Source: Geosiphon pyriformis uo1 (Eukaryota; Fungi; Glomeromycota). From it: a stretch of 64,000 nt of DNA. Location of the stretch: the NCBI GenBank assembly GCA_016748015.1, contig JAAOMT010000135.1:434001-498000 (forward strand), read 5' to 3'. Below the pieces are notes generated by a model that was given only the letters and a program-made list of their open reading frames with translations, searched no databases and was not told the DNA's origin. Each line of letters begins with the position of its first letter. Position 1 is the first letter of the stretch. This document shows, piece by piece, positions 378-48,524 of this stretch. A program made the position numbers and the translations under genes.

Positions 378-1034
378 ATGAACAATTATTTCCTGGATCA
401 AAACATTCAAAACGCTTTCTATACTTTCCATGAGTACTGGATCAAAAATTATCCAAATGCTACTCTGACTATTGGAAAACAAACCACTATAACAGACAAC
501 AGTGGAACTCACACTGTTATTAGACCAAAGAAAACAACTACCAGAAGAGAAAAAATTGGTGGCAAAATGGATAAATACCTGCTGGAAAGCATAACAGCAG
601 CAATACTTTCACCTTCCAGCACAATTGGAAAAACAATACAAGAAATCTTGCCCATAGACAAAAACTTGTCATATGGAAGACAACTAGAACTCTATGGTTG
701 TCTTGGTGAAATCATAGAAGACATGAAGCTCATGAAGAAAACAACTTCAGAGATACAAGAGGAAATTTTGGGCATTATATGATTGGATGTCCCAAGAGTT
801 TTGACCATTGCTAGAAGAGCCAGAACTCTTATACAAAGATTTGGTCTCTTGGATACAAAACTTATTTCACCTCAAGTATTATATACCTTATCCACAAAAG
901 ACTTCAACAAACTAGTTAGTTTTGAGTTAGACAAAACTCTTCACATAAACTATTCCATAAATAGCTTGATTTCGCCAGAGCTCAATCTCTTTGGAGAGGA
1001 TGATATTACGGTTGAAACTCATAGTTTTTATTAG
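378..1034 (+). pseudogene. ORF3 (unknown function, env position) of element C; one in-frame TGA at 780
   Basis: ORFs 282-782 and 783-1034 are in the same frame; ATG at 378; lies between integrase and PPT; motifs align by eye with ORF3 of A and B. Confidence 0.7.
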
Positions 1035-1729
1035 TTATCACATGTATTAGCCACTGATGTTATATAATTAGCCACCCTATTTTTAGATAGTGATTGTTGA
1101 CCTGATCAATGACCTGACCATTGACCTGATCATTGACCTGATCAATAACCTGATCGTTGACCTGATTGTTGACTTGATCATTGACCTGATCATTAACCTG
1201 GTCGTTAACCATTTTAGATAGCTATATAAGTGATGATTCCCTTAGCTGTAGAATGACATGAAAAAAGTAACAAAATAAACAATATCAATTACTTCCTCTT
1301 ATAATCACTTATTCCCCTTTTCTTACCTTCAAGTATCTACTTGTTGGCATTCACATACCTTATCTTTTCCTTTTCTTGATTTGTATTTGTTAGAATTAGC
1401 CTAAGAAGCAATTGGCTTGCTTTTGTAATTCATTAAATAAAGAAATGATTGAAAAGTACAATAATATCTGTTATTGATTCTAAGAATTGCCGAGTTGAGG
1501 CATAGAATAATAGCAGCGGTGTTATCTTGTTGACAATCACGGACTATTCCTCTACCTTCAGATTTAAGAAAAGATTAGTGACTATAATTTTTATGAGACT
1601 GATCATGCACATTGAATTCCTACTTATTCAATTCGCTCCCTTATTGTAATTCCCTCTTTGTTTATTTCCATCATCATACAATACTGTTCTCCCTTGTTAT
1701 CCGTTAGCTTGTTACTCCAACCCATAACA
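1004..1729 (+). repeat. 3' LTR of element C (726 bp)
   Basis: Follows the PPT; imperfect terminal inverted repeat; TATA-like CTATATAAG at ~1222; AATAAA at ~1436. Confidence 0.8.
1097..1210 (+). repeat. 12-bp tandem array (TTGACCTGATCA)x~9.5 in U3 of the C LTR
   Basis: Directly visible; bracketed by TTTTAGATAG direct repeats and immediately upstream of the TATA box. Confidence 0.9.
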
Positions 1730-5878: not shown

Positions 5879-6848
5879 TGTTATCAGACAAAATTAGAGA
5901 TATTATTTAGCATAAAAATTATCTTATAATTCCTATCATTAATTAGCATATATTATTGTTTCAAATTATCACTTATTACATTAGCAAAAATGTCCGAAAT
6001 TATCATTTAATTAATAACCCTAATTGTACACAACACAAATGTAACCTAATTGCGATGATCAATCATGCAATACCTCAAACTATGTAACATTTAAAAGTTT
6101 GCCGAAATTTATAGAAATTTGTTGAAATAATTGATAGTTCACTGAAATATCTAATAGTTTGTAGAAATAACTTGTAGTTCGCTAAAATGTATCTTTAGTT
6201 CAGCAAAATTGTAGAAAATAGCAAAGTTCAAGTTCATAGAATAGTGTTATAACAAGTTGTATAAAAAAAAAGCTTCTCTCTTTGAGAAAATATATCTTAC
6301 TTTAGTTTTATCACTTAGAACCATTCCTATACACACAAAAAGAAATAAATATTAAATAATTCGAAAAACCAAATTCTTTAATTATTTGCACTTGGAAAAT
6401 CCCCAAGAACCCAATTAACATTTTGAAATTGATTAACTACCAATTTCAGTAAACTGTTAGTGACTCCAGGCCTGGATAGAAAACGTTTCTCTTGACAAAA
6501 TTCTATTTCTTTTATTTTTTTTTATTTTCTTATCATAATCATTAAAGTAACCTACAGACGAGATTTCTGTAGAAGAGTTGACTTTCACAGCAAAGTAACT
6601 ACACATTTTAGTGAGCTTCCAGACGAACAATTCCTGGGAAAGAGTTGACATTTACTACAACATAACTACACAAAGCAACTGGCACGGAATTGGCCATTCC
6701 ACTTATAAGCCCAGCAGTTCAAATTATAGGAGATAATTTGAAAATAAATTCAGTTATTGGAGATTCAACCACATCCAAAAAACGTGAAATTCACAGTAAA
6801 CAAGCATTGACAACATTTAAGAAAAGAGACCAAAAACCTCCGGTAACA
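5879..6848 (+). repeat. A1 5' LTR (970 bp)
   Basis: TGTTATCAGA...CCGGTAACA; direct repeat of 14761-15741; TATA at ~6260; AATAAA at ~6344. Confidence 0.97.
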
Positions 6849-6850
6849 TT

Positions 6851-6867
6851 TGGTGCTCTCCCATGGA
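6851..6867 (+). promoter_or_regulatory. Primer-binding site of A1 (TGGTGCTCTCCCATGGA)
   Basis: 2 nt after the LTR; conserved in A2 (~32950-32966) and A3 (~23500-23516). Confidence 0.75.
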
Positions 6868-6894
6868 AATAACACAGCAACAACAAAATTCAAA

Positions 6895-9800
6895 GTAGCG
6901 ACCACACCAGATGCAACAACTCTAGAGTATTACCAATCAATTTACACCCACTGCAAGCAAAGATTCAACATTCCAGATGGAATTAAAGTTGTCAAGAAAT
7001 CAGTATACCAATACATTGAAAACCACATCAACAATTATCTTTTTGGAAATTACAATATCTCAGAAGTTAGAAGCAACCTTTACAATAATTTAGCACACTA
7101 TTCACAGTTGGGAACTAAAGACCTTAACAGTGAAACACTTGCCATTTACTTTCACGAACTCAATTTTAACATTATCAAATACTGTGAAGAAACATATTCA
7201 GTGCAGTCTCAATACACTATTGATTTTGAATCGAAAACAAAAACAAGCAACAAAGACAAAAACAAATTAAAGCAATATTCAAGAACCACCCCAAATACTT
7301 CAACACTACCAAAAACAACTGCCAACCATTTACAAACATCTGAACAAGGAACCAGTTCAAAACTTCCACTTACTATCACACTTTTTCCAGCTTCACTTGC
7401 ACAAGCACAAACACTTAATTCACCCTTAAATTGATTTGCAAGACCAGAAGATTTTACATCACTCAAAAGTCTCACCAGATAACAAGAACCCCTTTAAACT
7501 AGTTCCAATCTCCTTGATTTTTTAGCTGAAAATCAAAGTGAACACTCTGAGACAGCAGCAAATGAAGAAAACAACTCTGAAATAACTGAAGAAGAATCAA
7601 TAGACAGTGAAAACAAAGAAGACAAAATGACAACATACATTGCAAAAATCCCTGAATTCAATGGAGAAGATATTGAGACCAGTCTCCAAGAATGGCTCGA
7701 CCAAGTTACTAAAGCTGGAGATGCAAATGAATGGAATGCTGCCAGAATGTTAAGAACAATTCCCTACTTTCTCAAAGGAACAGCAGGAGAATGGTTTGAA
7801 AACTTGGCTGCTCCATTCAATGATTGGAATGCTTTCAAAGCAGTCTTCTTTGAACAGTTCACTGACAATAATACCTCTATCACCCTTTGTAATCATTTTC
7901 AAAATATCAAACAAGAACCCTCCGAATCTGTTATGACTTATATTGGGAAATTCAACAAACTTCTCAGACAAATTCGCCAACTCGAAACAAATGATTATTA
8001 TTCCAATGCTCAAATCTTGAATCAATTTATTGCTGGTCTAAAAGATAAACTAATTAAAAAGGTTTGCCCACATGCACCAGAAGATTTAAACTCTGCCATA
8101 CAGCATGCAAAAAGATACGAAATAGCCATAGAAGAGGCCAATCACACAAAACTTGTAAATTTGGCAATTGAAGAAACCAGCTCAGCAGCTGAGAAAAAAA
8201 TTGACCAACTCACAAAGAAGGTTAAAAACTATTTCACCAATCAACAACAACAGCAACCCCAAAGATATCAACCACCCCAAAGACGAAATCAAAATAACTT
8301 TGCACCACTTTCCAATAACCAGTCTCAAAATTGCCATTACTGTGAAATCTCTGGCCACTGAAAAAGAGATTGCAAAAAGCTATAACGAGACCAACAAAAT
8401 AGAAGTAATCAATGTTACCCTCCACTACAGCAATCTTATTATCAACTGCCACTACCAGCTTACTATCCACCAAGACCTCAATACCAAAATAACTATTATC
8501 AGCCCACCTCACAGCCAATCCAACAGCAATACCAACAATCGTTCACACAACATTATCAAGTACCTGCTCAAAGACTGCTTACACAGAATCAATTCACACC
8601 ACAAAACTGATACCAAGTAAACAACAATAGAATCAGTTTGAATAACCAATTGGTTTCTCAAAATTCCATTCAACCAAGACCCAACCACTACCACACTCAA
8701 CCCAGTTATTTAATAATGCCAGAAGAATAGGATTTTTATCATACTGCACCCTCGGAAGGTAGAGCTGCAGCACAACAACAAAACCCTTCCTATACTCTTA
8801 CCACAATTCCACCAGCCAGAATTGCTGAAAACGCTAACCTTTCAGATATATTCCCTTTTGAGTTCGAAGCAAATGAGTCACCATCCCTGCTTAGCAATGC
8901 AGCTGCCAATGAACAAAAAGCAATCACAGCTATGTACACTGAAGCAGAAGTTGAAGAAAAGACAATTCGCTTGATCTTAGACAGTGGATCCGCTGGAAGC
9001 ATTATTACCTACCAGTTAATGCAACAGTTGAAGAGAAATATTGACCAACCAGCTCAAACAGTAATCGTCACTGCCGATGGCATGAAAAAGACCCCAGTAG
9101 GAGAAATTAACAATTTTCCATTCACTCTTGATGGAATTACCATTCCAGTCAAAGTTCTTGTAATAGACACACCTCAGTACTAAGCTTTCGTCAGAAATGA
9201 TTGGCTTCAAAAAGCCAATGCTAATTTGAATTGGGAAACACAAGAGTTAACAATCTCCTACTAAGGACAACACGCCTGAGTATCTGCCACTTGTAGTACA
9301 TTCAACAAACACTTTGAAAAAGCCCCAGCTTTTGAATTCGAACCGGAAGAGGAAAAACCCCTCATTGAAACATTCATGGCTCTTGGATCAACATCCAACT
9401 GGGCTGATAAAACAGAACAAGAACATTTTACCCCACACTCTGAACTCAAACCCTCTGGATGAAATATCCCTTACTCAAAACCTGAACCAAGAAAACAATG
9501 CCCCTATATTCTCCTTAAATGTAAAGACTGCCACAAGAAACTATCATCAATGGGAGCCTGCATTTCACCTGAAAAAGAATATAAAAATCATACTTGTTAT
9601 TACTGCAAGGCTTGCCACAGAGAACAATGGGGCCATTTAATAAAAAGAAGCAGAAAATGGAACAACACTCCTTGTTTGACTTGTGGAGATATGCTACCAG
9701 AAGAATGCAATTGGATTGATGTAGCCATGAGAGGAGGAGTCTACAATCAGACCTGCCAATATGCTTTATCAATTTCAGAAAAAGTAAAAAGAGGAACACC

Positions 9801-12513
9801 CTTTAATGCGGTATACAACAGTGTTTTCAACAAACTTTATCACTACCCCCATGATGCTGAGATGATTTTTGACCTAGCAATAGCATTAATTAATGGAGCT
9901 ACCAAAGAAGATGTTTGCCAAATGAAGGAAGCAGAATACATTGAATACACCATGAAATTAGCTGGATTCGATTATGAAGACAAAGTAGAAGTCTACCACC
10001 AAATTGCAAGTCACACCTACCCAACTCAAGAAGCTCAAATTCAATGATTAGAGCAAATAAACATTAGGCTATGTAAAGAATGCATTATGCCTTGCAATGA
10101 ACAGTGGTGTCCTGAATGCTATACTCTTAGTATCCTCTTGCCCAGCAAAAATGATGAGAACAAAATTAAATTTGGAGAACCTGAAGCAATAGAAGAAATT
10201 GAAACAACACCTATCTACCTTATCGAAAATTAGCCTGCCTTACAACTTAAATACTTCAACAACAACGGACAAGGAATAAAACCTGAAAAAGCACACGAAA
10301 TTAATGCTGGATATGACCTAAGATATCCAGGCAAGGATACTCTTGTTCTCAAACCCAAATCTCTCACAAAAATCAACCTCAAAATTGCACTCGAAATCCC
10401 ACTAGGAGCAATAGTTCAAATTACCTCCTGGTCCTCTCTGGCAAGCAAAGGAATCAATGTCAGAGGAGAAATAATCGATGCTGAATATACTGGAGACATT
10501 ACAGTGATGCTTCAAAATGAAACTGACAAACCATTCAAGATCGAACATGTTGAAAAAATTGCCCAAGCTATTTACCTACCCTTAATCAACATTTCAGGTT
10601 TGCAACTAGTCAATCAAAGAGAACAATTAGAAAAAAGTGATAGAGGAACCCAAGGTTTTGGTTCAACTGGACAATTCACAGTTCCAGTTAACATAGCTCT
10701 TAACACATGGAACGAATCCCACCAGATTCTCAGACTTCCACAACCAATTACCATCTCACCCTTTGGAGAACATTCAAAAATCTACACCTGCCCAAAGCCA
10801 ACAACCACACAACAAATTTTTGAGTCCAATGAACAAGTCTGCTTGGAACATAATATTTCAATCCCAAACATTTATATTCCAGAAGGAACAAAAAAAGTCC
10901 GAGTTACTTTTTACAACCCCAATAATTACCCCATAATTTTATTAAATAATTTAGAAATTGGAGTTATTCACAGTAATATATTTCAACAAAAATTCCCCCA
11001 AACAGTCCCCAATTTCTCTGAAATTATTGGACATTCAATACCAAAAATCAACCCAAACCCCAGCTCCAAAAACTACCATGTTGTCAGGGAAAAACTATCT
11101 CAAATCAACATGGGACAACTTGAACCACAACAACAGATCCAGCTCAAAGAGCTAATTGCAGAATTTGCTGATATCTTTGCTGAAAACAACAATAACTTAG
11201 GAAGAACCAATTTGGTCCAACACCAAATTTATACAGGAGATGCCAAACCAAAAAGACAACAAGCATATCAAGTTGCTCCAGAAAGCCACCAATTCATCTG
11301 AGAAGAAGTACAACAAATCCTTAACAATGGGCTCATCCAACCCTTCATGAGTTCTTAGGCTTCACCTGTAGTGCTAGTTAAAAAGAAAAATAGAAAGATC
11401 CAATTTTGTGTTGACTATCGACAACTCAACAGTGTTACAATTGGAGATGCCTATCTCCTTCCCCGGATTGATAACATGTTAGATGCTCTTGGAAAATCCA
11501 AATACTTTTCAACACTAGATTTAGAAAGTGGTTACTGGCAAGTTGCTATGGATCCCAAAGATCACTCCAAAACAGCATTCACTACCCAAGGCAGAAATTA
11601 CGAGTTCAATGTAATGCCTTTCGGATTATGCAATGCACCAGCAACGTTTCAGAGATTAATAGATGTTGTGTACCAAGAACTTCTTTGGAAATCAGTAGTC
11701 ATTTATCTTGACAATACTGATGTTTATTCTCCATCGTTCAAATTACACTTAAAACATCTGCGAGAAGTTTTTCAATGATTACAAAAAGCAGAACTAAAAC
11801 TCAATATCGAAAAATGCTACTTTGAAAAAACAAGCCTGGTCTTCCTTGGTCATATTGTTAATAAAGATGGAATTAAACCAGATCCTGGAAAAATCAGCAT
11901 TGTCAAAAACTTCAAAACTCCTCGGAACACTACAGAACTAAGAGGATTCATGGGATTAGCATCCTACTATCGGAAGTTTATCAAAAAATTTTTGGAAATT
12001 GCAAAACTCCTCAACCAGCTCACTACCAAAAACGTTAAATACAAATAGACTACTGAACACCAAAAAGCTTTTGAAATTCTCAAGGAAAAACTGACAACAG
12101 CTCCAATTCTCGCCTACCCAAATTTCAACAACTGATTTCGACTAGCTACAGATGCTTCATATACTGCCTTTGGTGCTATCTTATCACAACTAGATAACAA
12201 CAAAAATGAGTAAGTAATTGCTTATGCTAGCAGAACATTAAAACCAGCTGAGAAAAACTATCCTGCCACAGAACTAGAAACAGCAGCCATAATTTGGGCC
12301 TTACACCACTTCAACCTTTATCTTAGGCCTAAAGAATTCGATATTATCACTGATAATATTGGACTCAAATAGCTTCAGAACAAAAATACTCAGCTGAATG
12401 CAAAACAAACCCAATGGACAAAATTTCTAGCAAACTATTGATACATAGTACATCACAAACCAGAAAAACTCCACACCAATGTTGACTGTCTCTTCAGAAT
12501 AAGACAAGATTAG
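6895..12513 (+). pseudogene. gag-pol: A1 ORF1: N-terminal domain, Gag, CCHC, protease, Cys-rich domain, dUTPase, RT, RNase H in one frame with ~20 nonsense substitutions
   Basis: ORF pieces at 6850, 7627, 8932, 9550, 10504 and 11371 share frame 1. Motifs: CHYCEISGH*KRDC at 8332; LILDSGSAGS at 8971; FCVDYRQLN; MPFGLCNAPATFQ; YLDN (decayed YLDD) at 11704; ATDAS at ~12145; natural stop RIRQD* at 12511. Confidence 0.93.
10240..10671 (+). other. dut: Trimeric dUTPase domain between protease and RT (A1)
   Basis: All five motifs are recognisable: AGYDL (10306), SWSSLASKG (RSS), GEIIDAEYTG, KIAQAI, RGTQGFGSTG (10642-10671). Homologues at ~16140-16533, ~29150-29590, ~35231-35625 and ~51820-52220. Confidence 0.9.
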
Positions 12514-12565
12514 AAAACCACAAAAACCAACACTCAACTTAACCAACCAAAAGAGCCAACAAACA

Positions 12566-13951
12566 ATGAATTTGGAAAACTACAATGATCTTAAACAATA
12601 TTTGGAAACATTAACAATCCCAACAGATTGGTCTCTAGATGAAAAACATCGACTACAACAACAAGCCAAACAATATTTTCTACACAACAACATTATTTAT
12701 TACCGAAATTTCAAAAACTCAGACAAACCACTCAGATTAATACAAGAACAGGAAAAAAAGACTATATTATACAACATGCACTCAAATCCTTCATCAGCCC
12801 ACTTCGGAAAAGACAGCACCACCCAAAGAACACTAGAATACTACTTTTGGCCTCGAATGAAAAAAGACATTTACGAATATGTCGAATCTTGTGATAGTTG
12901 TTAAAGAAGAGGAGGAACTTGCCCTACAGAACCTTTAAACCCAATCAAAGTTGGACAGCCTTTTGACAGAGTTGGTATCGATTTAGTCAGACCACTACCT
13001 ATCACAAACCAAGAAAACCATTACATTGCAGTAGCCGTAGACTATCTCACCAAATGGCCTAAAGCCAGAGCCATTCAATGGACAGATGCAAAATCAGTAG
13101 CAAACTTTATCTATGAAGACATCATTTGTAGACATGGATGCCCAATAGAACTTTTATCTGATCAAGGAACACATTTTGTGAACAATTTAATCCAGGAAAT
13201 TTGTGGATAATTTAATGTCAAGAGACCATTATCTTCATCCTACCATCCACAAACAAATGGACTGATAGAACAGTTCAACAGAACATTGTGTGAATCATTA
13301 GCCAAAGTTTCAACCGATTTTGAGCAAGAATGGGATCTCTTTATTCTATCAGTGTTACTAGCATATAAGACACTAAAACAAGATACCACAAAACACACAC
13401 CATTTGATTTAACTTACGGAAGGACGGCAACATTACCAATTAGTTTCACAGTAGAAACATATCCAGCACAACCAATCAATGAAAACAATTTCCAAGAAAT
13501 GCTTTAACAAAGAGCCTACACTCTGCTTAGCACATTAGAAGAAAAACAACGAATAGCAGCCACTCATATTGAATACTCCCAAGCTCAACAAAAAGAATGG
13601 CATGATGACAAATTGCCTCCAATCACTAATGAATTTAAAATTGGAAACAAAGTTCTCTTACACAGAACTAAAGCTGAAAAACAATGGAGTGGAAAATTTG
13701 AAAATAAATGGCATAGACCATTCTTTATCCATGAAGTTTTAGGCAATGAATCATACAAGCTAAGACTTGATGACAAAATTCTAGCAAAAGTTGCACATGG
13801 AGATCGTTTGAAACACTATAATTCCAGAAACAATCCTGAACCATTAATTTTACAAATTGGTACACATTCCCCTTTAATCAATCCCGAAGACATTCCCCGA
13901 AATTTAGAACCAATAGTTGTCATTGAACAGTCTCACAACTTAAACACTTAA
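12566..13951 (+). pseudogene. A1 integrase, separate ORF (HHCC, DDE, GPF/SH3-like; no chromodomain)
   Basis: MNLENY start; H...H...CDSC; VGIDLV, LLSDQGTHF, YHPQTNGLIE; WHRPF; three stops, one frame. Confidence 0.92.
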
Positions 13952-14072
13952 TTTAAATTTATTATTATAGTTATCTTCTTATAATTTAGAAACAATCTCA
14001 CAAAAACAAAACAAAAATAACATAAAAACTCATGCACCAAAAATAATTTTCTTTTATTTCAAATTGCTTATA

Positions 14073-14792
14073 ATGACTATTCCTCAAAACATTCAACAAT
14101 TATCCCAAAAACTAATGTTAGCTTTAAAAACAATACCCGAATTATCCATTACTGTTACTGGAAACTACATTAATTATACCCAAACAGAAGTAGTTACAAA
14201 TTTAGCCCCAAATTCACGAAAATATTATCCGTATAAGAAGAATACAAGAAGTTATACTGGAATTCACCTGCCAGAACTTTTAAAACTTGCTTTAAAAGAA
14301 AATCTAATGCTCACTCCGATTAGTATTCCACCAAATGCTACAATTCAACAAAGACTTCAACTGTGTCTCAATGAGGAAAACACTGAATATCCTCCAATCT
14401 ATAGATATTTTCACATTGGAAAAACACTCTACAAACAGAAACTAAAACTTACAACAGCAAACCTCACAAAAAAAGCTATTCAGAAACAACTCCACAACGA
14501 ATTCAAAACAACAGCTGGATCAACAAATAGTTACTACAGGCTCAGAGCTGCTCTTAGACTTTATGACCTATTCCACACCTGTGAAAACGTACTACAAAAC
14601 CCAATTTTTCAATCTTTGAAGATTCAATACATTGGAAAGCTCACAGAACTGAAATTTCAACAATTTTCAGACCAAATTTCTTCAATAATTTTGGATTATT
14701 ATCTGGAAATAACAAACAGTACTTGGACTTCGACGGAGCTCAGTCTTGAGGAGGAGGTTATGTTACCAGACAAAATTAGAGATATTATTTAG
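14073..14792 (+). CDS. A1 ORF3, intact 239-aa protein of unknown function in the env position
   Basis: Open from ATG 14073 through the PPT and 32 bp into the LTR; homologous ORFs in A2, B1, B2, B3 and C. Confidence 0.8.
   Translation: MTIPQNIQQLSQKLMLALKTIPELSITVTGNYINYTQTEVVTNLAPNSRKYYPYKKNTRSYTGIHLPELLKLALKENLMLTPISIPPNATIQQRLQLCLNEENTEYPPIYRYFHIGKTLYKQKLKLTTANLTKKAIQKQLHNEFKTTAGSTNSYYRLRAALRLYDLFHTCENVLQNPIFQSLKIQYIGKLTELKFQQFSDQISSIILDYYLEITNSTWTSTELSLEEEVMLPDKIRDII
14748..14757 (+). promoter_or_regulatory. Polypurine tract of A1
   Basis: GAGGAGGAGG 3 nt before the LTR TG. Confidence 0.85.
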
Positions 14793-15741
14793 CATAAAAA
14801 TTATCTTATAATTCCTATCATTAATTAGCATATATTATCGTTTCAAATTATCACTTATTACATTAGCAAAAATGTCCAAAATTATCATTTAATTAATAAT
14901 TCAAATTGTACACAACACAAATGTAACCTAATTGCGATGATCAATCATGCAATACTCTGAACTATGTAACATTCAAAAGTTTGCCAAAATTTATAGAAAT
15001 TAGCCGAAATAATTGATAGTTCACTGAAATATCTAATAGTTCGTAGAAATAACTTGTAGTTTGCCAAAATGTATCTTTAGTTTAGCGAAATTGTAGAAAA
15101 TAGCAAAGTTCAAGTTCATAGAATAGTGTTATGATAAGTTGTATAAAAGAAGAGCTTCTCTCTTCGAGAAAATGTATCTTACTTTAGTTTTATTACTTAG
15201 AACTATTCCTACACACACAAAAAGAAATAAATATCAAATAATTCGAAAAACCAAATTCTTTAATTATTTGCACTTGGAAAATCCCCAAGAACCCAACTAA
15301 CATTTTGAAATTGATTAGCTACCAATTTCAGTAAACTGTTAGTGACTCCAGGTCTGGATAGAAAACGTTTCTCTTGACAAAATTTTATTTTTTTTACATT
15401 TCTTTTATTTTCTTTTATTTTCTTATTATAATCATTAGGGTAACCTACAGACGAGATTCCTGTAGAAGAGTTGACTTTCACAGCAAAGTAACTACACATT
15501 TTAGTGAGCTTTTAGACAAGCAATTTCTGGAAAAGAGTTGACGTTTACTACAACGTAACTACACAAAGCAACTGGCATGAAATTGGCCATTCTACTTATA
15601 AGCCCAGCAGTTTAAATTATAGAAGATAATTTGAAGATAAATTCAGTTATTGGAGGTTCAACCACATCCAGAAAATGTGAAATTCACAGCAAATAAGCAT
15701 TGACAACATTTAGGAAAAGAGACCAAAAACCTCTGGTAACA
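14761..15741 (+). repeat. A1 3' LTR (981 bp)
   Basis: 10-bp perfect terminal inverted repeat TGTTACCAGA/TCTGGTAACA. Confidence 0.97.
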
Positions 15742-18417: not shown

Positions 18418-19794
18418 ATGAACACACAAAAATACCAACAGCTTCAACACTATATAAATACCCAACAGTTCAAGGAGAAGTTATCTCAAAAGAAACGAAA
18501 TAACATCAAGCAACAATCAAAATATTTTATCAATTATCAAAATATACTTTACTAGAAAAATAGACAAAATTCAGATCAACCAACCAAGATAATTACAGAG
18601 CCAGAGAAAGAAACAATACTGTTCAACATACACTCAGATCCAACAGCAGGACATTTCCACAAAGAAGCAACCATAGAAAAGACCAGAAAAAGATACTATT
18701 GGCCATCAATATATCCAAACATCATCCAATATGTTCAAAATTGTGATGCTTGTCAAAGAAGAGGAGGAACAAAACCCAGTAAGCCATTAAGACCAATTAA
18801 AGTAAAACAACTATTTGATCACATTGGAATTGACTTAGTCAAATTATTAACAATAACTAGCAAAGACAACAGATATATAGCAATAGTCATGAATTATCTT
18901 ATTAAGTGGCCAAAAGCAAAAGCAATTCAAAGAGCGGATGCAGAATTTGTTGCCAAATTTGTTCATCAAGACTTGATTTGTTAACATAGATGTCCAAAAG
19001 AATTATTATCAGACCAAGGAACTCACTTTGTGAACAGAACATTAGCAGAATTGAGCCAAAGATTCGGAATTAAAAGGCCACTATCATCACCATATCATCT
19101 ACAAACAAATGGTTTAGTTGAAAGATTTAATAGAACATTGTGTAAAGCAATTACCAAACTCAGCCAAAAAAACCAAGATGAATGGGATTTGTTTATACCA
19201 TCAGTACTATTTGCTTATCAGACAATGAAGTAAGATACTATACAAGCAACACCATTTGAATTAGTATATGGTAGAACAGCAACAATACCAGTTAAAATAG
19301 AAGTCAACACATATCCAACTGAACCAATAACAAAAGAGAATTTTCAGAAAACATTGTTGAGAAGAACATATGACTTAATAGAAATATTGAAAAACAAACA
19401 AAGAAGAACAGCTGATAATATTCAAAGATCACAAGAGAAACAGAAAGAAAGACATGATAGTCAACTACCAAACAAACCAGTTGAGTTCAAAATTGGAGAC
19501 AAAGTACTCTTATATTGTACCAAAGCAGAAAAACAATGGAGTGGAAAATTTGACCCCAAATGGGACGGACCATTTCACATAAAAGAAATTCTAGGAAATG
19601 GAGCTTATAAATTAAGATTGAACAGTAAAATCTTGACAAAAACAGCACATGGAGATCAATTGAAACCATACCACAATATAGTGTTACCATCTACTAGTAA
19701 CATTTCACAATTGGGAGTACAGAGACTATTAATCAGACCAGATGAAATTTCATGAGATTTAGAACCAATTGTCATTATCAACACAAACACGTAA
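18418..19794 (+). pseudogene. B1 integrase, separate ORF
   Basis: ATG at 18418 (MNTQKYQQ); CDAC; IGIDLV; LSDQGTHF; NGLVERFN; WDGPF; ends LEPIVIINTNT*. Confidence 0.9.
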
Positions 19795-19855
19795 AAGTGA
19801 TCGACCAAAAAAAATATATAAAGACATGGTAGATGCAACAAAAGATATTAGAAAA

Positions 19856-20503
19856 ATGGAGATTACTGATAACATCTACTTACTAGTACAACAACTATTC
19901 AAACTGATTCAACAACAAAATATAGAAATTACTATCAATCAACAAACCATTCAATACCGAGATACCAGAAAGATACCCAAATACAAAAGTAAAAAGAAAA
20001 CAGAAAACACCATTGACAAAATGGTTCTAAAAATAAAATTAGCAATTGAGGAACCAACAAGTGTTACTATATATTAAGAGTTGACCAAAAAAACATGGAA
20101 ATGGTGGATACATGAATTTCCAAGAAACTTCTGTTACTTCTATTTGGGACGACACTTGAACATTCAGAACTTATACACAGATAAAACAAAACAATTATTC
20201 AACACAGCAATACTGCAACAACTAGAACAATTCGTAGGAAAAAACAATCTGACCACACAAGCAAAAGCCATCTATTGGCTACATATAGGATTTTAAGACA
20301 GACTGGAAATTTTACTCAATCCAGAATTAAACTCCATTACAATTAACCAAATAGGAAAAATGACCAACACTCAATTTAAAGAATTGCAGAACCAGATAAC
20401 TCAAATAATCCTTGAAAGAGAAGTTCAAGAAATACTCAACAACAAAAAATTAGAGTTAGGAGATTTAAGAGATTTAAGAGATCTCGATGGAGCTCAATAT
20501 TAA
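19856..20503 (+). pseudogene. B1 ORF3 (~215 aa, two nonsense mutations)
   Basis: ORFs 19769 and 20081 share a frame that continues to GAQY* at the PPT. Confidence 0.78.
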
Positions 20504-20517
20504 AAAGGAAGGAATAA

Positions 20518-22273
20518 TGTTACTCATAGAATATAGAAAATATATTAGCACATGAAATAGCCAATTAGAGATAGCCGTAGTAAATGTGGAATTCCAGGAT
20601 TCCTCTCAAGAGGAATTGCAGGATTTCAGGAATTTCAGGATTCTCTGGGCAAGGAATTGCAGGATTCCAGAATTCCAGGATTCCTCTTAAAAGGAATTGC
20701 AGGATTCCTGAGGTGAAGAATCGAGGAATTGAGGAATCTCAATTATGTATATATAGCAGTAGTGTTAGAAGTAGGAAAGGCAGAATCTTTAGTTAGAAAA
20801 CCTCTCCATTTAGATTTTTATCTAAGCAACTTTCCAAATCACAAATATTAATAAATAATTATTCACTATCTCAATTCACTCTTTACTATCAACACTTCAT
20901 GTTGATAATAATTGATACTTAACCCCACTGGAACAATAGCTTTTGATCACAGCTATTGACAGGATACTAATTTGTAATTGCTTTTGTTATTTTCTTTATT
21001 TTTTTTTATTTTCTTTTATTTCTTTTGTTATTTCTTTGGTTTTGCTAAAATTGATTAAAGATTAAGTGCTAAGATACAGACATTATAGGGACTGGTAAAA
21101 GACCCATGAAACAAGGATAGAATACTTATAGATTTGAGGATAGCTTACCAGAAGGATTACCAGTGTTACCAGACAAAATTAGAGATATTATTTAGCATAA
21201 AATTATCTTATAATTCCTATCATTAATTAGCATTGTTTCAAATTATCACTTATTACATTAGCAAAAATGTCTGAAATTATCATTTAATTAATAATCCAAA
21301 TTGTACACAACACAAATATAACCTAATTGTGATGATCAATCATGCAATACCCCGAACTATGTAACATTCAAAAGTTTGCTGAAATGTATCTTTAGTTCAG
21401 CGAAATTGTAGAAAATAGCAAAGTTCAAGTTCATAGAATAGTGTTACAATAAGTTGTATAAAAGAAGAACTTCTCTCTTCAAGAAAATGTATCTTACTTT
21501 AGATTTAATAATTAGAATCATTCTTTACACACAAAAACGAAATAAATATCAAATAATTTGAAAAATCAAATCCTGAATTATTTCACTTTTGAAATTAACT
21601 AATTTCTACTAAACAGTTTGAAATTGATTAGCTACCAATTTCAGTAAACTGTTAGTGATTCCAGGCCTGGATAGAAAACGTTTCCCTTGACAAAAATTCT
21701 ATTTCTTTTACATTTTTTTTATTTTTCTTTTATTTTCTTATTACAATCATTAGGGTAGCCTACAGACGAGATTCCTGTAGAAAAATTGACTTTCACAGCA
21801 AAGTAACTACACATTTTTAGTAAGCTTCCAGATGAGCAATTCCTGGGAAAGAGTTGATGTTTACTACAACGTAACTACATAAAAGCAACTGGCAAGGAAT
21901 TGGCCATTCCACTCATAAGCCCAGCAGCTCAAATTATAGGAGATAATTTGAGAATAAATTCAGTTATCGGAGATTCAAACACTTTCCATAATTGTAAATT
22001 AACAGCATTACAACAAACATACAAGAGCTAAGAAGAGACCAAAAATCTCTAGTAACACCAGCCACCATACTGAGAAAGAAATTTGACAAAACTGCAGTTT
22101 TGGAAAACTATGGATAAAATCATTAATTAAATTTCTGTTTATTATACAAAAGACTCAACTCTAAAATCTTCAGATACAACCAACATACCAGTGTTAACAG
22201 CCTTGTCAAGATATTGAGCACCAAGTTATGGATTTGTTATTTGATTTGAGACCCCAAATAATCATCTGTAACA
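20518..22273 (+). repeat. B1 3' LTR, interrupted by a solo A LTR
   Basis: TGTTACTCAT...TCTGTAACA; follows PPT AAAAAGGAAGGAA; U3 array of GGAATT/AGGATTCC units at ~20588-20740. Confidence 0.92.
21164..22057 (+). mobile_element. Solo LTR, family A (894 bp), TSD CCAG
   Basis: TGTTACCAGAC...CTAGTAACA; CCAG at 21160-21163 and 22058-22061; a single CCAG at the equivalent site in the B1 5' LTR (~2004). Confidence 0.95.
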
Positions 22274-23473
22274 ATGTTTAATAGCTATTGCTAAGTTTTC
22301 TGGTAAATGTGGATGCACTTTTTTTATGAGTTTATCTTTTAATCCAGCAATGAATTGATCTAAAATTTGGGTATTAGAATAGTATTCATTGGTTTTCAAC
22401 TGGTAAATTCTTCTGAGAAGTTTGTTGAACTTTTCTAGGTAAGTTATAACTGATTTACTTGGTTCTTGTTTAATATTCCAAAACTGATTTTGGAGAGTAA
22501 TAGATGTGTTGTTGTTAGTGAATTGTTGTAAAAAAGCATTTTTAAATGCTTGCCAGTTCTTAAAGAGTGCATTTAAGTTTTCAAATCATTCTTCTGCTGT
22601 TCCTTGAAGAAAGTAGGAAATTGCTTTAAGCATTCTTGCTGTATTCCATCCATTTGCATCTCTTGCTTTCTGGACTTTGTTAAGTTATTTTTGTGAACTG
22701 GTATTATTATCTTTACCAGTAAATTCTGAAATCTTTGCAATATAAGCAGTTGCCATTTCTTCTTTGTTTTCTGTAGTTTCTTCTTATTCTGATTCAGTTT
22801 TTTTACTTTTCAAGTTCTCTGAATAATTATTTTCGTTTTTTTGTAAGTAATCAATAATATTGGTGTTGATTGATATTGGTTTTTGCTGTTGAATAAAATT
22901 TTTAGGTGACTAAAAATCTTCTGGTCTGGAAAAATGGTTAAGTAGTAAATTTGGTGTTTGTGATTAAGCAAATGAAATTGGTAATGGTGTAATAGAAAGT
23001 AGTAATTTGACACTGGTTTCTTGTTCTGGTGTTTGCAAGTGTTTGGCAGTTATTTTTGGTATTTTTAGAGTATTTGGGGTGGTACTTGAGTGTTGTTTTA
23101 GTTTTTGTTTGCCTTTGTTGCTTGTTTCTGTTTCTGATTCAAAGTTAATAGAGTATTTAGACTGTACTGAATATTTTTCTTCACAATACTGAATATTGTT
23201 GAAATTAAGTTCTTGGAAGTAGGTATCAAGTGTTTTACTATTAAGATCTTCAGTTCTTAATTGTGAATAGTGCACTAAATTATTGTAGAGGTTGTTTCTA
23301 ACTTCTGAAATGTTGTAATTTCCAAAAAGATAATTGTTGATATTGTTTTTAATATACTGGTAAAGTGTCCTTTTAACAATTTCAATTTCGTCTAGAATGT
23401 TGAATTTCTGCTTGCAATGAATGTAAATTGACTGGTAATACTCTAAAGTTGTTGTGTCTGGTGTAATTGCCAC
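22274..23473 (-). pseudogene. gag: A3 N-terminal domain and Gag fragment
   Basis: GTG at 23473 (VAITPDTTTLEYYQ), MATAYIAKISEF; homologous to 6895-8105. Confidence 0.85.
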
Positions 23474-24039
23474 TTTGAATTTGTTGTTGCTGTGTGATTT
23501 TTATGGAAGAACACCAAATGTTACTGGAGGTTTTTGGTCTCTTTTCTTGAATGTTGCTAATGTCTGTCTGTTGTTAATTTCATGTTTTCTGGAAGCAGTT
23601 GAATCTTCAATAACTGAATTTATCTTCAAATTATCTCTTATAATTTGAATTGCTGGACTTATAAGTAGAATAACCAATTTCATGCCAGTTACTTTGTGTA
23701 GTTACATTGTAGTAAACATTAACTCTTTCCCAGGAATTGCTTATCTGGAAGCTTACTAAAATTGTGTAATTACTCTGCTGTGAAAGTCAACTCTTTTACA
23801 AAAATTTTATCTATAGGCTACTTTAATAATTATAATAAGAAAAATAAAATAAAATAAAAAAAATATAAAAAAAATAGAATTCTGTCAAAAGAAACGTTTT
23901 CTATTCAGGCCTGAAGTTGCTAACAAATTACTGAAATTGGTAGCTAATTAATTTCAAAATGTTAGTCGGGTTTTGAAGAATTTCAAGTGTAATAATCAAA
24001 GATTTGGTTTTTGAATATTTAATTTTTATTTGAATATGG

Positions 24040-25011
24040 TATTACTGAAGGTTTTTGGTCTCTTTTCTTGAATGTTGTCAATATTAATCTGCTGTAAATT
24101 CACGTTTCCAGGAAGTAGTTGGACCTCCAGTAACTGAATTTATCTTCAAATTATCTCCTATAATTTGAACTGCTGGGCTTATAAGTGGAATGACCAATTC
24201 CATGCCAGTTGCTTGTGTAGTTACATTGTAGTAAATGTCAACTCTTTCCCAGGAATTGCTTGTTTGAAAGCTCACTAAAAATATGTAGTTACTTTGCTAT
24301 GAAAGTTAACTCTTTTACAAGAATCTTGTCTGTAGACTACTCTAATAATTATGATAAAAAATAAAAATAAAAATAAAAAAAATGTAAAAAAAATAAGATT
24401 TTATCAAGGGAAACGTTTTCTATCCAGGTCTGGAGTGACTAACAGTTTACTGAAATTGGTAGCTAATCAATTTCAAAATGTTAGTTGTGTTGGAAGAATT
24501 TCAAGTGTAATAATCAAAGGATTTGTTTTTCAAATATTTAATTTTTATTTGAAATGTGTAAAAGATGATTTGTTCTAATTAAGATATTTAAAGTAAGATA
24601 CTATGTTAAAATATTATGAAAAGATACATTTTTTTGAAGAGAAAAGCTCTTCTTTTATACAATTTGTTGTAGTACTAGTCTTTGAACTTGTACTTTTCTC
24701 TTTGTTATAATTTGGGTAAACTAAAGATATATTTTGGCAAACTACAAGTTATTTCATTGAACTATTGATTATTTCGGCCAATTTTTATTAATTTCGGCGA
24801 ATTTTGACTATGTTAAATGGTTTAAGGTATTGTGTAATTTGATCATCTTAATTTCTAGAGTACAAATCGAATTATTGATTGAGTAATGATATTTGATAAT
24901 TTGATTAAATAATAAGTAATAATTTGAAATAATAATAATATATGCTAATTAATAATAGGAATTATGAGGGTAATTTCATGCTAATTAACAGCTAAAATTC
25001 TACTGGTAACA
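24040..25011 (-). repeat. A2 3' LTR
   Basis: Direct repeat of 32969-33928. Confidence 0.93.
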
Positions 25012-25699
25012 TAATCTCCTCTTCAAGACTGAGCTCCATTGAAGTCCAAGTACTATCTGTGATGTTAAGATAGTGGTCCAAGATAATTAAAGTAATCTAG
25101 TCTGAAAATTGTTGAAATTTTAGTTCTGTGAGCTTTCCAATGTATTGAACTTTCATTGGTTGTAGTATTGGATTTTGTAGAATATTTTTACAAATTTTGA
25201 ACAAATCATAGAGTTTAAAAGCTGCTCTAAGTTTGTAGCAAGTATTTGTTGGTTCAGCTGCTGTTTTAAATTCATTGTAAATTTGTTTTTGTATAGCCTC
25301 AGGAGTAATGTTGGTTGCTTCAAGTTCTAGTTTTCGTTCACAAAGTGTTTTTTCAATATGAAAATATCTATATATAAGGATATGTTCATTGTTCTGTTCA
25401 TTAAAAAATAGTATAAGTTTTTGTTGCATTGTGGTATTTGGTAGAATGTCAATAGAAGCAAATAAAAAGTTTTCTTTTAGTGCTTGTTTCAAAAGTTCTG
25501 ATAATTGATTTTCAGAGTAACTTTTTGTTTTTTTTCTATAGAAATAATAATTCTGAGAATTATTTACTATTGTGGTTGTGGTTTTTTTCTGAATGTAATT
25601 AATTTGACTTCCATTAATTGTTATAGATAAGTCAGGAAATGTTTTCAAAGCTAACATTAATTTTTGGGATATTTGTTGAATATTTCGAAGAATAATCAT
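24992..25699 (-). pseudogene. A2 ORF3
   Basis: ORF 25097-25714 is clearly homologous to A1 ORF3; one stop at 25097. Confidence 0.8.
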
Positions 25700-32923: not shown

Positions 32924-32968
32924 TTTGAAGTTGTTATTACTGTGTTATTTCTGTGGGAGAGCACCAAA

Positions 32969-33928
32969 TGTTACTAGAGGTTTTTGGTCTTTTTTTTTGA
33001 ATGTTGTCAATGTTAATCTGCTGTGAATTCACGTTTTCAGGAAGTAGTTAGACCTCCAGTAACTGAATTTATCTTCAAATTATAGGAGATAATTTGAACC
33101 ATTGGGCTTATAAGTAGAATGACCAATTCCATGCCAGTTGCTTGTGTAGTTATGTTGTAGTAAACATCAACTCTTTTCCAGGAATTGCTCGTCTAGAAGC
33201 TCACTAAAAATGTGTAGTTACTTTGCTGTAAAAGTCAACTTTTTTACAGGAATCTTGTCTGTAGACTACCCTAATGATTATGATAAGAAAATATAAGAAA
33301 TGTAAAAGAAATAGGATTTTATCAAGAGAACGTTTTTTATCCAGGCCTGGAGTAACTAACAGTTTACTAAAATTGGTAGCTAATCAATTTCAAAATGTTA
33401 GTTGTGTTGAGAGAATTTCAAGTGTAATAATCAAAAGATTTGTTTTTCAAATATTTAATTTTTATTTGAAATGTGTAAAAGATGATTTGTTCCAATTAAG
33501 ATATCTAAAGTAAGATACTATGTTAAAATATTATGAAAAGATATATTTTCTTGAAGAGAAAAGCTCTTTTTTTATACAACTTGTTGTAGTACTAGTCTTT
33601 GAACTTGCACTTTTCTCTTTGCTATAATTTGGGTGAACTAAAAATATATTTTGGCAAACTACAAGTTATTTCATTGAACTATTGATTATTTCGGCCAATT
33701 TTCATTAATTTCGGCGAATTTTGACTATGTTAAATGGTTCAAGGTATTGTGTAATTTGATCATCTTAATTTCTAGAATACAAATCGGATTATTGATTGAG
33801 TAATGATATTTAATAATTTGATTAAATAATAAGTAATAATTTGAAATAATAATAATATATGCTAATTAATAATAGGAATTATGAGAGTAATTTCATGCTA
33901 ATTAACAGCTAAAATTTTACTGGTAACA
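32969..33928 (-). repeat. A2 5' LTR
   Basis: Adjacent to the PBS; ends CTGGTAACA on the + strand. Confidence 0.93.
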
Positions 33929-34382
33929 ATAGAAAGGGTGATTTGTTCTAATTAAGATATCTAAAGTAAAATACTATGATAAGATACTATGAAAAGCTAT
34001 ATTTTCTTAAAGAGAGAAGCTCTTTTTTTATACAATTTGTTGTAATACTAGTCTTTGAACTTGCACTTTTCTCTTTGCTACAATTTTGGTGAACTAAAGA
34101 TACATTTTAATAAATTACAAGTTATTTCACTGAACTATTGATTATTTCGGCCAATTTTATTAATTTCAGCAAATTTTGACTATATTAAATAGTTCAGAGT
34201 ATTGTGTAATTTGATCATCTTAATTTCTATGGTACAAATTGGATTATTGATTGAGTAATAATATTTGATAATTTGATTAAATAATAAGTGATAATCGAAA
34301 TAATAATAATATATGCTAATTAATAATAGGAATTATGAGGATAATTTTATGCTAATTAATAACTAAAATTCTACTAATAACA

Positions 34383-38918: not shown

Positions 38919-39548
38919 ATAAAAATACTAGATCATATTTACATCTTAGCTCAACAATTGTTTCAGGCCTTAAACTAACAACAATTAAACATGAAAATTG
39001 TCATCAACTACCAAGCAATCTGTTATTAAAACACCAAACAAAAAAAAAGTACATCATATCAGCAACCACAAAAACAATCAAGAAACTGGTCAGATAAAAT
39101 AGTAGAAAAAATAAAGAACACTTTTGGGAAAATACTCATTATGATTTCAACAGAAAAACTTTCAAAAATAATTGGAAACAATGAACAAAACAACTTCCAA
39201 TACCATACTACTACTATTAGTTGGAACAAAAGTTAAACATTCAGAAATTATATCTTAATAAAGCCAAAAGAATATTCAATCAAGAAATAATACGAAATAT
39301 TGAAAATATTATCAGAAAGAAAACAAATCTAATATTACATATTAGAACAATCTATCAACTACACATAATATTTCAAAATTACCCAAAAATATTGTTGCAC
39401 TCTAACATGGAAACAATCACCATTAACCAATGGAGAAGAATAAAAAACACACAAATTGAAGATAAAAAAACAAAATTGAACAAACAGTATTAAAAAAAAA
39501 GTATTAGACTTAATTCAAAGTAAAAATTTCGACAAAGCTCAATATTAA
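38919..39548 (+). pseudogene. B2 ORF3 (decayed)
   Basis: ORF 39221 and flanks are homologous to B1/B3 ORF3; ends KAQY*. Confidence 0.7.
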
Positions 39549-47888: not shown

Positions 47889-48524
47889 TTAATATTGAGC
47901 TCCATCAAAATTCCCATTTTGAATTATGTTAAATACTTCTTTTTCAAGTAGCATCTGTTCTACTCTACTCTTTATTTCTTTAATTTGTGAGTTGTTTATT
48001 CTTTCTTATTGGTTAATGGTTATTGTTTCTATGTCAGAGTGTAACAATACTTCTGAGTAGTTTTAAAATATAGTGTATAGTCAATAAATAGTCTTGATAT
48101 GTAATATTAAGTTTGTTTTCTTTTCAATAATGTTTTCAATGTTCTGGATTATCTCTTGATTGAAAATTCTCTTGGATTTGTTAAGATATAACTTTTGAAT
48201 ATCTACTTTTTGTTCCAATTAATAATAGCAGTATGGTATTGAAAATTGGTCTATCTATTTGTTCTAATTTTCTTTTACTAGTTCTTCTGTTAAAACCATG
48301 ATAATTATTTTTTCAAAAGTGTTCTTTACTTTTTCTACTATTTTATTTGACCAGTTTATTAATTGTTTTTGTTGTTGTTAGTATAGTGTACTTTTCCCTT
48401 TTTGTTTGGTGTTTTGATAACAGATTGTTTGGTTGTTGACAATAATTTCCATGTTTATTTGCTATTGACTTAAAGCCTGAAACAATTGTTGAGCTAAACT
48501 GTGGATATGGTCTGGTATTTCCAT
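47889..48524 (-). pseudogene. B3 ORF3
   Basis: ATG at 48524 (MEIPDHIHSLAQQLFQAL); ends DGAQY*. Confidence 0.75.

What the first reader, a model, noticed from the sequence alone, without database searches (positions are those of the whole stretch)
14073..14792. Conserved unknown ORF3 in the env position of three divergent families, intact in A1
Seen: a ~215-240-aa sense ORF lies between INT and the PPT in six copies. Blocks align by eye in A/B/C: PQNIQQL..L..SITV / TDNIYLL..L..EITI / DQNIQNA..TLTI; YFHIGKTL / YFYLGRHL / LYGCLGEII; AALRLYDLF / AKAIYWLHIGF / ARRARTLIQRF; IGKLTELKFQQF / IGKMTNTQFKEL / LYTLSTKDFNKL. No signal peptide or transmembrane stretch is evident, so it is not env-like. Inference: a soluble accessory factor, such as an anti-silencing, transactivating or nucleic-acid-binding protein. 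A1 ORF3 has no stop while the rest of A1 has more than 20, which may be chance.
Basis: partly seen in the sequence, partly recalled or inferred. Interest (0 to 1): 0.8.

Follow-up and report, generated by a model that had tools for sequence, protein, structure and literature searches.

The report
Third gene of fungal gypsy retrotransposons
These decayed fungal jumping genes carry a real, conserved third gene behind their integrase that encodes a soluble helical protein rather than an envelope, and it likely works as a regulator binding the element's own promoter repeats, which would make these elements self-activating in the way of complex retroviruses.

Summary
ORF3 is a real gene. Six copies lie between integrase and the 3' LTR of nested Ty3/gypsy elements; every named relative is labelled Geosiphon pyriformis. 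A1/A2 dN/dS is 0.21, like pol. Metagenome contig L001 has a 31%-identical homolog in the same slot. A-B homology is significant; C is only marginal (p about 0.01-0.06). The intact A1 frame is compatible with chance (P about 0.1).

It is not env: no membrane segment, 0-2 cysteines. AlphaFold gives a confident all-helical core with no significant Pfam, PDB or viral-structure match; hints of a DUF1016_N/ParB-type helix-turn-helix are weak.

New here: each family has its own short repeat array in U3 before the TATA box. Among B1/B2/B3, ORF3 follows the repeat type, not integrase: ORF3 plus U3 repeats form one divergent block (p about 1e-29). In L001 the U3 motif recurs twice upstream of ORF3.

Best reading (0.4): a family-specific DNA-binding activator or anti-silencing factor, like foamy-virus Tas or VANC. 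Linkage alone could explain the block, and binding and expression are untested. Rival: a TAV-like translation factor for the separately encoded integrase.

The parts
14073..14792 (+). ORF3 of element A1, 239 aa, intact; predicted N-terminal helix plus beta-hairpin (low confidence), disordered linker (38-64), confident helical core (about 78-210)
14736..14760 (+). GAGCTCA motif (same DNA in A, B, C and L001, read in a different frame in B) followed by the polypurine tract; both lie inside ORF3 in family A
14761..15741 (+). 3' LTR of A1 (TG...CA), 92.8% identical to the 5' LTR; ORF3 ends 32 nt inside it
14975..15149 (+). Family-A U3 array of about 20-bp units (TTCGCCGAAAT-type, decayed) and TATA box (15142-15149)
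5879..6848 (+). 5' LTR of A1; 4-bp target duplication ACAA at both ends of the element
6847..12514 (+). A1 gag-pol frame: Ty3-type capsid, protease, unknown domain, dUTPase, RT, RNase H region; 21 premature stops
12566..13951 (+). A1 integrase as a separate ORF (own ATG after the RNase H stop; H2C2, rve, SH3; no chromodomain hit); 3 premature stops
24992..25699 (-). ORF3 of element A2, 63% identical to A1, one internal stop
19856..20503 (+). ORF3 of element B1, two internal stops; ends just before the PPT
20588..20755 (+). B1 U3 array of GGAATTCC/CAGGATTC units and TATA box; with ORF3 it forms the block (about 19750-20750) in which B1 departs from B2 and B3
38919..39548 (+). ORF3 of element B2, frameshifted and with stops; U3 palindromic CATATTGCTnAGCAATATG-type repeats at 39643-39729
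47889..48524 (-). ORF3 of element B3, eight internal stops; U3 palindromic repeats at 47655-47806 (3' LTR) and 56882-56981 (5' LTR)
378..1034 (+). Same-slot ORF of family C, 218 aa, one internal stop; homology to A/B marginal
1097..1200 (+). Family-C U3 array, 12-bp unit TTGACCTGATCA x 8.7, followed by a TATA box

Best explanation
ORF3 is a selected accessory gene of a lineage of fungal Ty3/gypsy elements, and its soluble helical product likely binds the short family-specific repeats in the element's own U3 promoter to activate it or keep it from being silenced. Shown: a three-ORF layout (gag-pol, separate integrase, ORF3), purifying selection on ORF3, no membrane segment, family-specific U3 arrays, and one divergent ORF3+U3 block in B1. 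Predicted: a helical core whose helices 108-128, 133-148 and 153-167 could form a helix-turn-helix-like unit, with N152 and R162 invariant. Inferred: ORF3 is made from a short internal transcript or by reinitiation, enters the nucleus, and binds the often palindromic repeats, probably as a dimer. Protein and site would have to stay matched, so they change or are exchanged together.
For: dN/dS 0.21 (bootstrap 0.13-0.30, 231 codons) for A1/A2, within the 0.08-0.32 range of nine gag/pol segments; shifted frames give 0.60 and 1.05. L001 has RT-RH, integrase, ORF3, PPT, LTR in the same order with 31% identity and no DNA-level match in ORF3 except at the PPT; L002 has a homolog after an integrase end. 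At least five ORF3 subfamilies among Geosiphon-labelled proteins plus two metagenome lineages. Model pLDDT 72, core 81-95, all helical. The conserved columns are aromatic/hydrophobic plus N152 and R162, with no D/E/H/C set; pI 8.5-9.3 in the 7 Geosiphon-type proteins tested. Distinct U3 arrays just 5' of the TATA box in A, B1, B2/B3, C and L001. Integrase identities B1-B2 77, B1-B3 75, B2-B3 70%, but ORF3 39, 39, 56%, matching U3 motif type. Singleton sites B1/B2/B3 are 384/412/376 in pol-INT and 226/46/62 in ORF3+U3, p 1e-29. In L001 the U3 heptamer TTGCCCT occurs twice in the 304-nt integrase-ORF3 spacer (1 of 20000 shuffles) and not in 2151 nt of pol. Weak fold hints: Pfam DUF1016_N E 0.16, hhalign E 0.011 with a shared Y..IG-helix-G..N...RLY/RFY pattern, Spo0J Z 3.9 (rmsd 3.8, 85 aligned) and KorB Z 3.5 (rmsd 5.3, 95 aligned).
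Against: ORF3 and U3 are adjacent, so one template switch carries both whatever their function; this is a single event, and B1 is also somewhat odd past the TATA box (0.165 against 0.107 and 0.077 per site). U3 repeat arrays are common in LTR elements and usually bind host factors (own knowledge). The U3 motif recurs upstream of ORF3 in L001 only, 1 of 7 elements by exact k-mers (A1, A2 and B2 gave no repeated k-mer to test), and a family-A weight matrix shows no enrichment there. The helix-turn-helix hints are within noise: DUF1016_N is hit by 2 of 14 members, 1 of 70 block shuffles reaches the hhalign score, the comparison was chosen after seeing the Pfam hit, and an implausible FtsQ model scores far better (E 7e-5). 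The two metagenome proteins are acidic (pI 5.4 and 5.9). TATA-like boxes precede ORF3 in B, C and L001 but not in A1 or A2.
Confidence: 0.4

Rival explanations
1. ORF3 is a post-transcriptional helper like caulimovirus TAV/P6: an RNA- or ribosome-binding protein from the last ORF that promotes reinitiation on the polycistronic RNA, so that the stand-alone integrase is made, and that may also blunt RNA silencing or nonsense-mediated decay.
For: Integrase sits behind a stop and an A-rich spacer in 6 of 6 copies examined, with its own ATG in 5 of 6, so the RNA would be polycistronic. The last-ORF position is that of TAV (own knowledge); TAV's reinitiation and silencing roles are in the abstract starts of PMC5734791 and PMC6504953.
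Against: No Pfam match to a caulimovirus P6 domain. It does not explain why ORF3 diverges together with the U3 repeats, other than by linkage. No element with one feature and not the other was available for contrast.
Confidence: 0.2
2. ORF3 is a particle or trafficking accessory: a soluble protein that binds Gag, integrase or a host protein to move particles among the nuclei of a coenocytic hypha, to direct integration, or to counter a host restriction factor.
For: Fast evolution relative to integrase (A1-L001 60% against 30%) with purifying selection fits a host-facing protein. The fold has no clear match. The env slot usually serves spread (own knowledge).
Against: ORF3 was exchanged independently of pol and integrase in B1, which argues against a tight partnership with them. 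No membrane segment.
Confidence: 0.25
3. ORF3 is a captured member of a wider Mucoromycota orphan family, kept for a generic, sequence-non-specific nucleic-acid or chromatin role; its link to the U3 repeats is mere adjacency.
For: ESM Atlas feature search with the core of P0371 ranks two unnamed Mucoromycota clusters first (0.94 and 0.93; 167 and 160 of 256 features). I recall abundant Glomeromycotina hypothetical proteins with a similar pattern (recalled, not tested).
Against: No host-gene-like relative appeared among 106 profile hits; the 20 looked up were 18 Geosiphon-labelled and 2 unnamed metagenome proteins. Atlas scores are uncalibrated for protein parts, and full-length A1 gave unrelated clusters at 0.92.
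Confidence: 0.12
4. ORF3 is an env-like membrane protein, or non-functional cargo kept open by chance.
For: Position after integrase; weak fold and family signals.
Against: Hydropathy maximum at most 1.29 and 0-2 cysteines; dN/dS 0.21; protein-level conservation without DNA similarity in L001.
Confidence: 0.03

Closest known systems
Additional ORFs of Ty3/gypsy elements: plant 3' aORFs (PMC11728184, passages read), bdelloid ORF3s (PMC5408684, abstract and section 3.3 read), fungal 'add. ORF' (PMC2864245, passages read)
   Same: Extra ORF beyond gag and pol, family-specific, often of unknown function; dUTPase-bearing gypsy elements occur in rotifers and fungi.
   Different: Not Env, GDSL esterase or DEDDy exonuclease (no Pfam match, no catalytic set); new protein family; sits in a three-ORF element with a separate integrase; runs into U3 in families A and C.
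Foamy virus Bel1/Tas (PMC517496, PMC4929722; search listing with abstract starts only)
   Same: Accessory ORF near the 3' LTR; Tas binds response elements in both the LTR and an internal promoter, as the L001 motif layout would suggest.
   Different: No sequence match; no env; binding untested; the doubled motif is seen in L001 only.
VANC anti-silencing proteins of VANDAL transposons (PMC10398659, abstract read)
   Same: Element-encoded protein matched to rapidly diverging tandem repeats in the element's own non-coding DNA; host silences TEs by CG methylation (shown for Rhizophagus, 10.1101/2021.03.30.436303, passages read).
   Different: VANDALs are plant DNA transposons; no sequence similarity seen; no demethylation evidence here.
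Caulimovirus TAV/P6 (PMC5734791, PMC6504953; search listing with abstract starts only)
   Same: Last ORF of a polycistronic reverse-transcribing element; soluble.
   Different: No P6 domain match; ORF3 is much shorter (TAV length recalled); function untested.
DUF1016_N (PF17761, YhcG N-terminal domain) and ParB/KorB-type helix-turn-helix domains
   Same: Three-helix pattern with Y..IG at the start and an N...R/K..RLY-type third helix.
   Different: Scores below significance (E 0.11-0.16 in Pfam; Z 3.5-4.0); no PD-(D/E)XK partner domain; no prokaryotic relative found.

Membership tests
Ty3/gypsy LTR retrotransposon (host element) | LTRs with TG...CA, PPT, target duplication, gag-PR-RT-RH-INT order | tested here: met
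3' additional ORF of Ty3/gypsy elements | Conserved sense ORF between pol/INT and the 3' LTR, under selection | tested here: met
One ORF3 family across A, B and C | Significant profile alignment A-B | tested here: met
One ORF3 family across A, B and C | Significant profile alignment of C with A/B | tested here: inconclusive
   E 0.03-0.29; 3 of 70 block shuffles reach the score
Env / env-like protein | Transmembrane anchor or hydrophobic signal segment | tested here: not met
   Kyte-Doolittle 19-mer maximum 0.27-1.29 in 9 of 9 proteins; no dedicated signal-peptide predictor was run
Env / env-like protein | Cysteine-rich ectodomain or match to an env profile | tested here: not met
   0-2 Cys; no env family in Pfam scans
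DUF1016_N / ParB-type HTH | Profile match at curated or significant level | tested here: not met
   12.5 bits against cutoff 32.8, E 0.16; hhalign E 0.011, probability 3.9
DUF1016_N / ParB-type HTH | Same fold | tested here: inconclusive
   Spo0J Z 3.9-4.0, KorB Z 3.5, tied with unrelated helical rows; no solved DUF1016_N relative by sequence
Tas-like transactivator | Binds response elements in LTR and internal promoter and activates them | not testable with these tools
   indirect only:
VANC-like anti-silencing factor | Protein matched to fast-diverging tandem repeats of its own element | tested here: inconclusive
   covariation in one exchange event, confounded by linkage
VANC-like anti-silencing factor | Sequence-specific loss of silent marks | not testable with these tools
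   needs expression and methylome data
TAV-like translational transactivator | Polycistronic RNA with a downstream ORF needing reinitiation | tested here: met
   integrase behind a stop in 6 of 6 copies; this is the layout only
TAV-like translational transactivator | P6 domain, or stimulation of reinitiation | tested here: inconclusive
   no Pfam match; activity not testable

The most novel reading that the evidence does not exclude
These are 'complex' fungal retrotransposons that encode their own sequence-specific transactivator or anti-silencing protein, of a new helical DNA-binding family, and each lineage pairs its ORF3 with a private U3 repeat code; the pair is swapped between lineages as one lock-and-key module.
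Probability: 0.3. Interest if true: 0.82.

Novelty: new variant of a known kind. Interest (0 to 1): 0.55.

Why it matters
Extra ORFs of Ty3/gypsy elements are common but rarely have a known function. This one comes with natural, intact protein variants and short candidate target motifs for several families, so a cognate-against-non-cognate binding matrix can test it directly. If true, an LTR retrotransposon of a fungus would share the self-activation logic of foamy viruses and VANDAL transposons. That could help explain how LTR elements came to fill 41% of the Geosiphon genome (PMC11952901, passages read) in a lineage where TEs are CG-methylated (shown for Rhizophagus). It would also supply a new family of small DNA-binding proteins with diversified specificity.

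Tried and rejected
No whole genome is held for this window, so genome-wide intactness and ORF3/U3 pairing could not be counted. Expression: no RNA holder listed. Fold searches with the better model found nothing clear: Foldseek PDB 0 matches at E<=0.001, BFVD 0, VIA-align best Z 4.5 among 48161 chains and 4.3 among 991; the first, poor model (pLDDT 43.5) gave best Z 6.6 on a three-helix piece. The N-terminal part and family C were not folded on their own. PDB sequence profiles: best E 1.7 and 0.27. PHROGs: no consistent family, best E 0.0012 in 1 of 27 members. NCBIfam FtsQ E 7e-5 in 6 of 27 members, all family A, 22 bits against cutoff 366: rejected as spurious. No relatives in viral contigs (0 of 139 candidates) or prokaryote genomes (0 of 130). 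Domestication or post-insertion selection on A1 ORF3: rejected; pooled over A1, A2, B1 and B3, ORF3 has 11 stops in about 900 codons against 136 in about 8760 elsewhere (my sum; B2 and C left out). Family-A U3 motif upstream of ORF3: not enriched. A conserved splice acceptor before ORF3 was not evident by eye. A homodimer prediction could not be run because the queue was full, so dimerisation is open. Literature: searches for Geosiphon with gypsy/LTR terms, extra ORFs in fungal LTR elements, Glomeromycota dUTPase elements and self-transactivating fungal LTR elements showed no description of this ORF; the Geosiphon genome papers themselves were not among the hits and no supplements were read, so a prior mention cannot be excluded.

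Full report
Context. The window is a nest of decayed Ty3/gypsy LTR elements. A1 spans 5879-15741 with LTRs 92.8% identical and a 4-bp target duplication. Pfam finds capsid, protease, dUTPase, RT, integrase zinc finger, rve and SH3 domains in order. No genome is held. The listed relatives of the three ORF3 types are all named Geosiphon pyriformis hypothetical proteins: 120 listed of 204 for A, 94 of 94 for B, 120 listed of 130 for C. The host is therefore likely this fungus or a close relative. Between the two A1 LTRs, 55 of 57 substitutions are transitions, at the highest rate in CG context.

The observation. 14073-14792 is a stop-free 239-aa ORF. A and B are homologous (tblastn E 3e-10; hhalign E 7e-6). 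C is a probable, unproven relative. In A, C and L001 the frame runs through the PPT into U3; in B it stops before the PPT. The rest of A1 has 24 stops in 2349 codons, which makes a clean 239-codon frame a 9-11% event, so nothing points to domestication.

It is a real gene. dN/dS between A1 and A2 is 0.21 (0.13-0.30) against 0.08-0.32 for nine gag/pol segments, and 0.60 and 1.05 in the shifted frames. A profile search of 1.84 billion representatives gave 106 hits. Of 20 looked up, 18 are Geosiphon-labelled and 2 are unnamed metagenome proteins, P0369 and P0371. A tree of 17 chosen rows resolves subfamilies A, B1-like, B2/3-like, D and E, with the two metagenome proteins sister to A on long branches. 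Contig L001 encodes P0371 in the order RT-RH, integrase, ORF3, PPT, LTR, with 31% identity to A1 and no DNA similarity in ORF3 outside the PPT; L002 has an integrase end, another 128-aa ORF and then an ORF3 homolog. ORF3 has been kept in this slot over long distances and evolves faster than integrase (A1-L001 60% against 30%).

What the protein looks like. It has no membrane segment and 0-2 cysteines, so it is not Env. With a diverse 27-row alignment AlphaFold gives mean pLDDT 72, 81-95 over residues 81-210, all helical; the N-terminal helix and hairpin are low-confidence. Across eight subfamily representatives the conserved columns include P107, Y110, Y112, F113, I115, G116, L119, T151, N152, R162, F167, L174, G188, T191, F195 and I202, with no acidic, histidine or cysteine set, which argues against an enzyme or zinc finger. 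No library gives a significant, credible match. Three weak hints point to a helix-turn-helix: Pfam DUF1016_N at E 0.16; hhalign against ten DUF1016 proteins, E 0.011, reached by 1 of 70 block shuffles; and Spo0J and KorB rows at Z 3.5-4.0 among unrelated helical rows. These are leads only; an implausible FtsQ hit scores better. The ESM Atlas puts two unnamed Mucoromycota clusters first for the core of P0371 but unrelated clusters for full-length A1.

Clues from the element. First, integrase is a separate ORF behind a stop in 6 of 6 copies examined, as two earlier notes on this genome also reported, so the element has three ORFs. Second, each family has its own short repeat array in U3 directly before the TATA box: about 20-bp TTCGCCGAAAT-type units in A, GGAATTCC in B1, CATATTGCTnAGCAATATG palindromes in B2/B3, TTGACCTGATCA in C, TTGCCCTAG in L001. 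Third, B1, B2 and B3 are about equidistant in pol and integrase (singleton sites 384/412/376), but from about 19750 to the TATA box at about 20750 B1 stands apart (226/46/62; p 1e-29). ORF3 identity follows the repeat type: B2-B3 56%, B1 to either 39%, while integrase is 70-77% for all pairs. Synonymous sites are saturated in ORF3 for B1-B3 (pS 0.83 against 0.33-0.51 in pol), which indicates exchange of the block rather than selection alone. Fourth, in L001 the U3 heptamer occurs twice in the spacer before ORF3 (1 of 20000 shuffles) with a TATA-like box downstream. Against this: ORF3 and U3 are neighbours and would travel together anyway; it is one event; B1 is also mildly odd beyond the TATA box; and the doubled motif is not seen in the six window copies.

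Mechanism. The most likely reading (0.4) is a family-specific DNA-binding regulator of the element's own LTR, working like foamy-virus Tas (abstract starts of PMC517496 and PMC4929722) or like VANC proteins, whose target tandem repeats diverge rapidly (abstract of PMC10398659). Shown are the gene, its selection, its solubility by hydropathy, the arrays and the block. Inferred are expression, nuclear entry, binding, dimerisation and effect. Rivals: a particle, trafficking or counter-defence accessory (0.25); a TAV-like reinitiation factor serving the stand-alone integrase (0.2; abstract starts); a captured orphan with a generic role (0.12); env or junk (0.03).

Comparison and novelty. Extra ORFs in gypsy elements are known from plants (PMC11728184, passages), rotifers (PMC5408684, abstract and section 3.3) and fungi (PMC2864245, passages). 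This protein family matches none of their assigned types, and my searches found no description of it; the Geosiphon genome papers were not among the hits and no supplements were read. LTR elements cover 41.2% of the Geosiphon genome (PMC11952901, passages), and TEs are CG-methylated in Rhizophagus (10.1101/2021.03.30.436303, passages). Two earlier notes from other genomes describe orphan third genes in fungal gypsy elements; I could not check whether they are the same family, and sequence look-ups found no overlap. Verdict: a real new accessory gene family of a known kind, with a specific and testable but unproven lock-and-key hypothesis. Interest 0.55.

Noticed in passing
window 12512-12568 (A1) and equivalents in A2, B1, B2, B3; L001 about 772-802: Integrase is a separate ORF: stop right after RNase H, A/C-rich spacer, new ATG (no ATG left in B3).
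   Followed up: partly
L002:425-811: A further 128-aa ORF with no Pfam match lies between integrase and the ORF3 homolog, suggesting a four-ORF element.
   Followed up: partly
window 14736-14742 and equivalents: GAGCTCA about 20 nt upstream of the LTR edge is conserved as DNA in A, B, C and L001 although read in different frames; a likely cis-element next to the PPT.
   Followed up: no
window 9463-10047 (A1), with homologs in A2 and B copies: A conserved cysteine-rich domain of unknown family between protease and dUTPase, dN/dS 0.13.
   Followed up: no
window 6847-7626: About 260 codons upstream of the capsid domain, in frame, dN/dS 0.32 for the first 184 codons, no Pfam match; a long N-terminal Gag extension or 5' extra ORF.
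   Followed up: no
window 11092-11286: Weak match to the spumavirus protease-like profile Spuma_A9PTase (E 2e-6) just before RT.
   Followed up: no
window 22274-24034 against 31725-33470; 23521-24553; 33477-34384: Inverted partial duplications of A2's LTR and gag region flank A2, giving palindromic junctions.
   Followed up: no
window LTR pairs of A1, A2, B3: Decay is almost all C-to-T/G-to-A, strongest at CG but substantial in all contexts; window CpG observed/expected 0.17.
   Followed up: partly
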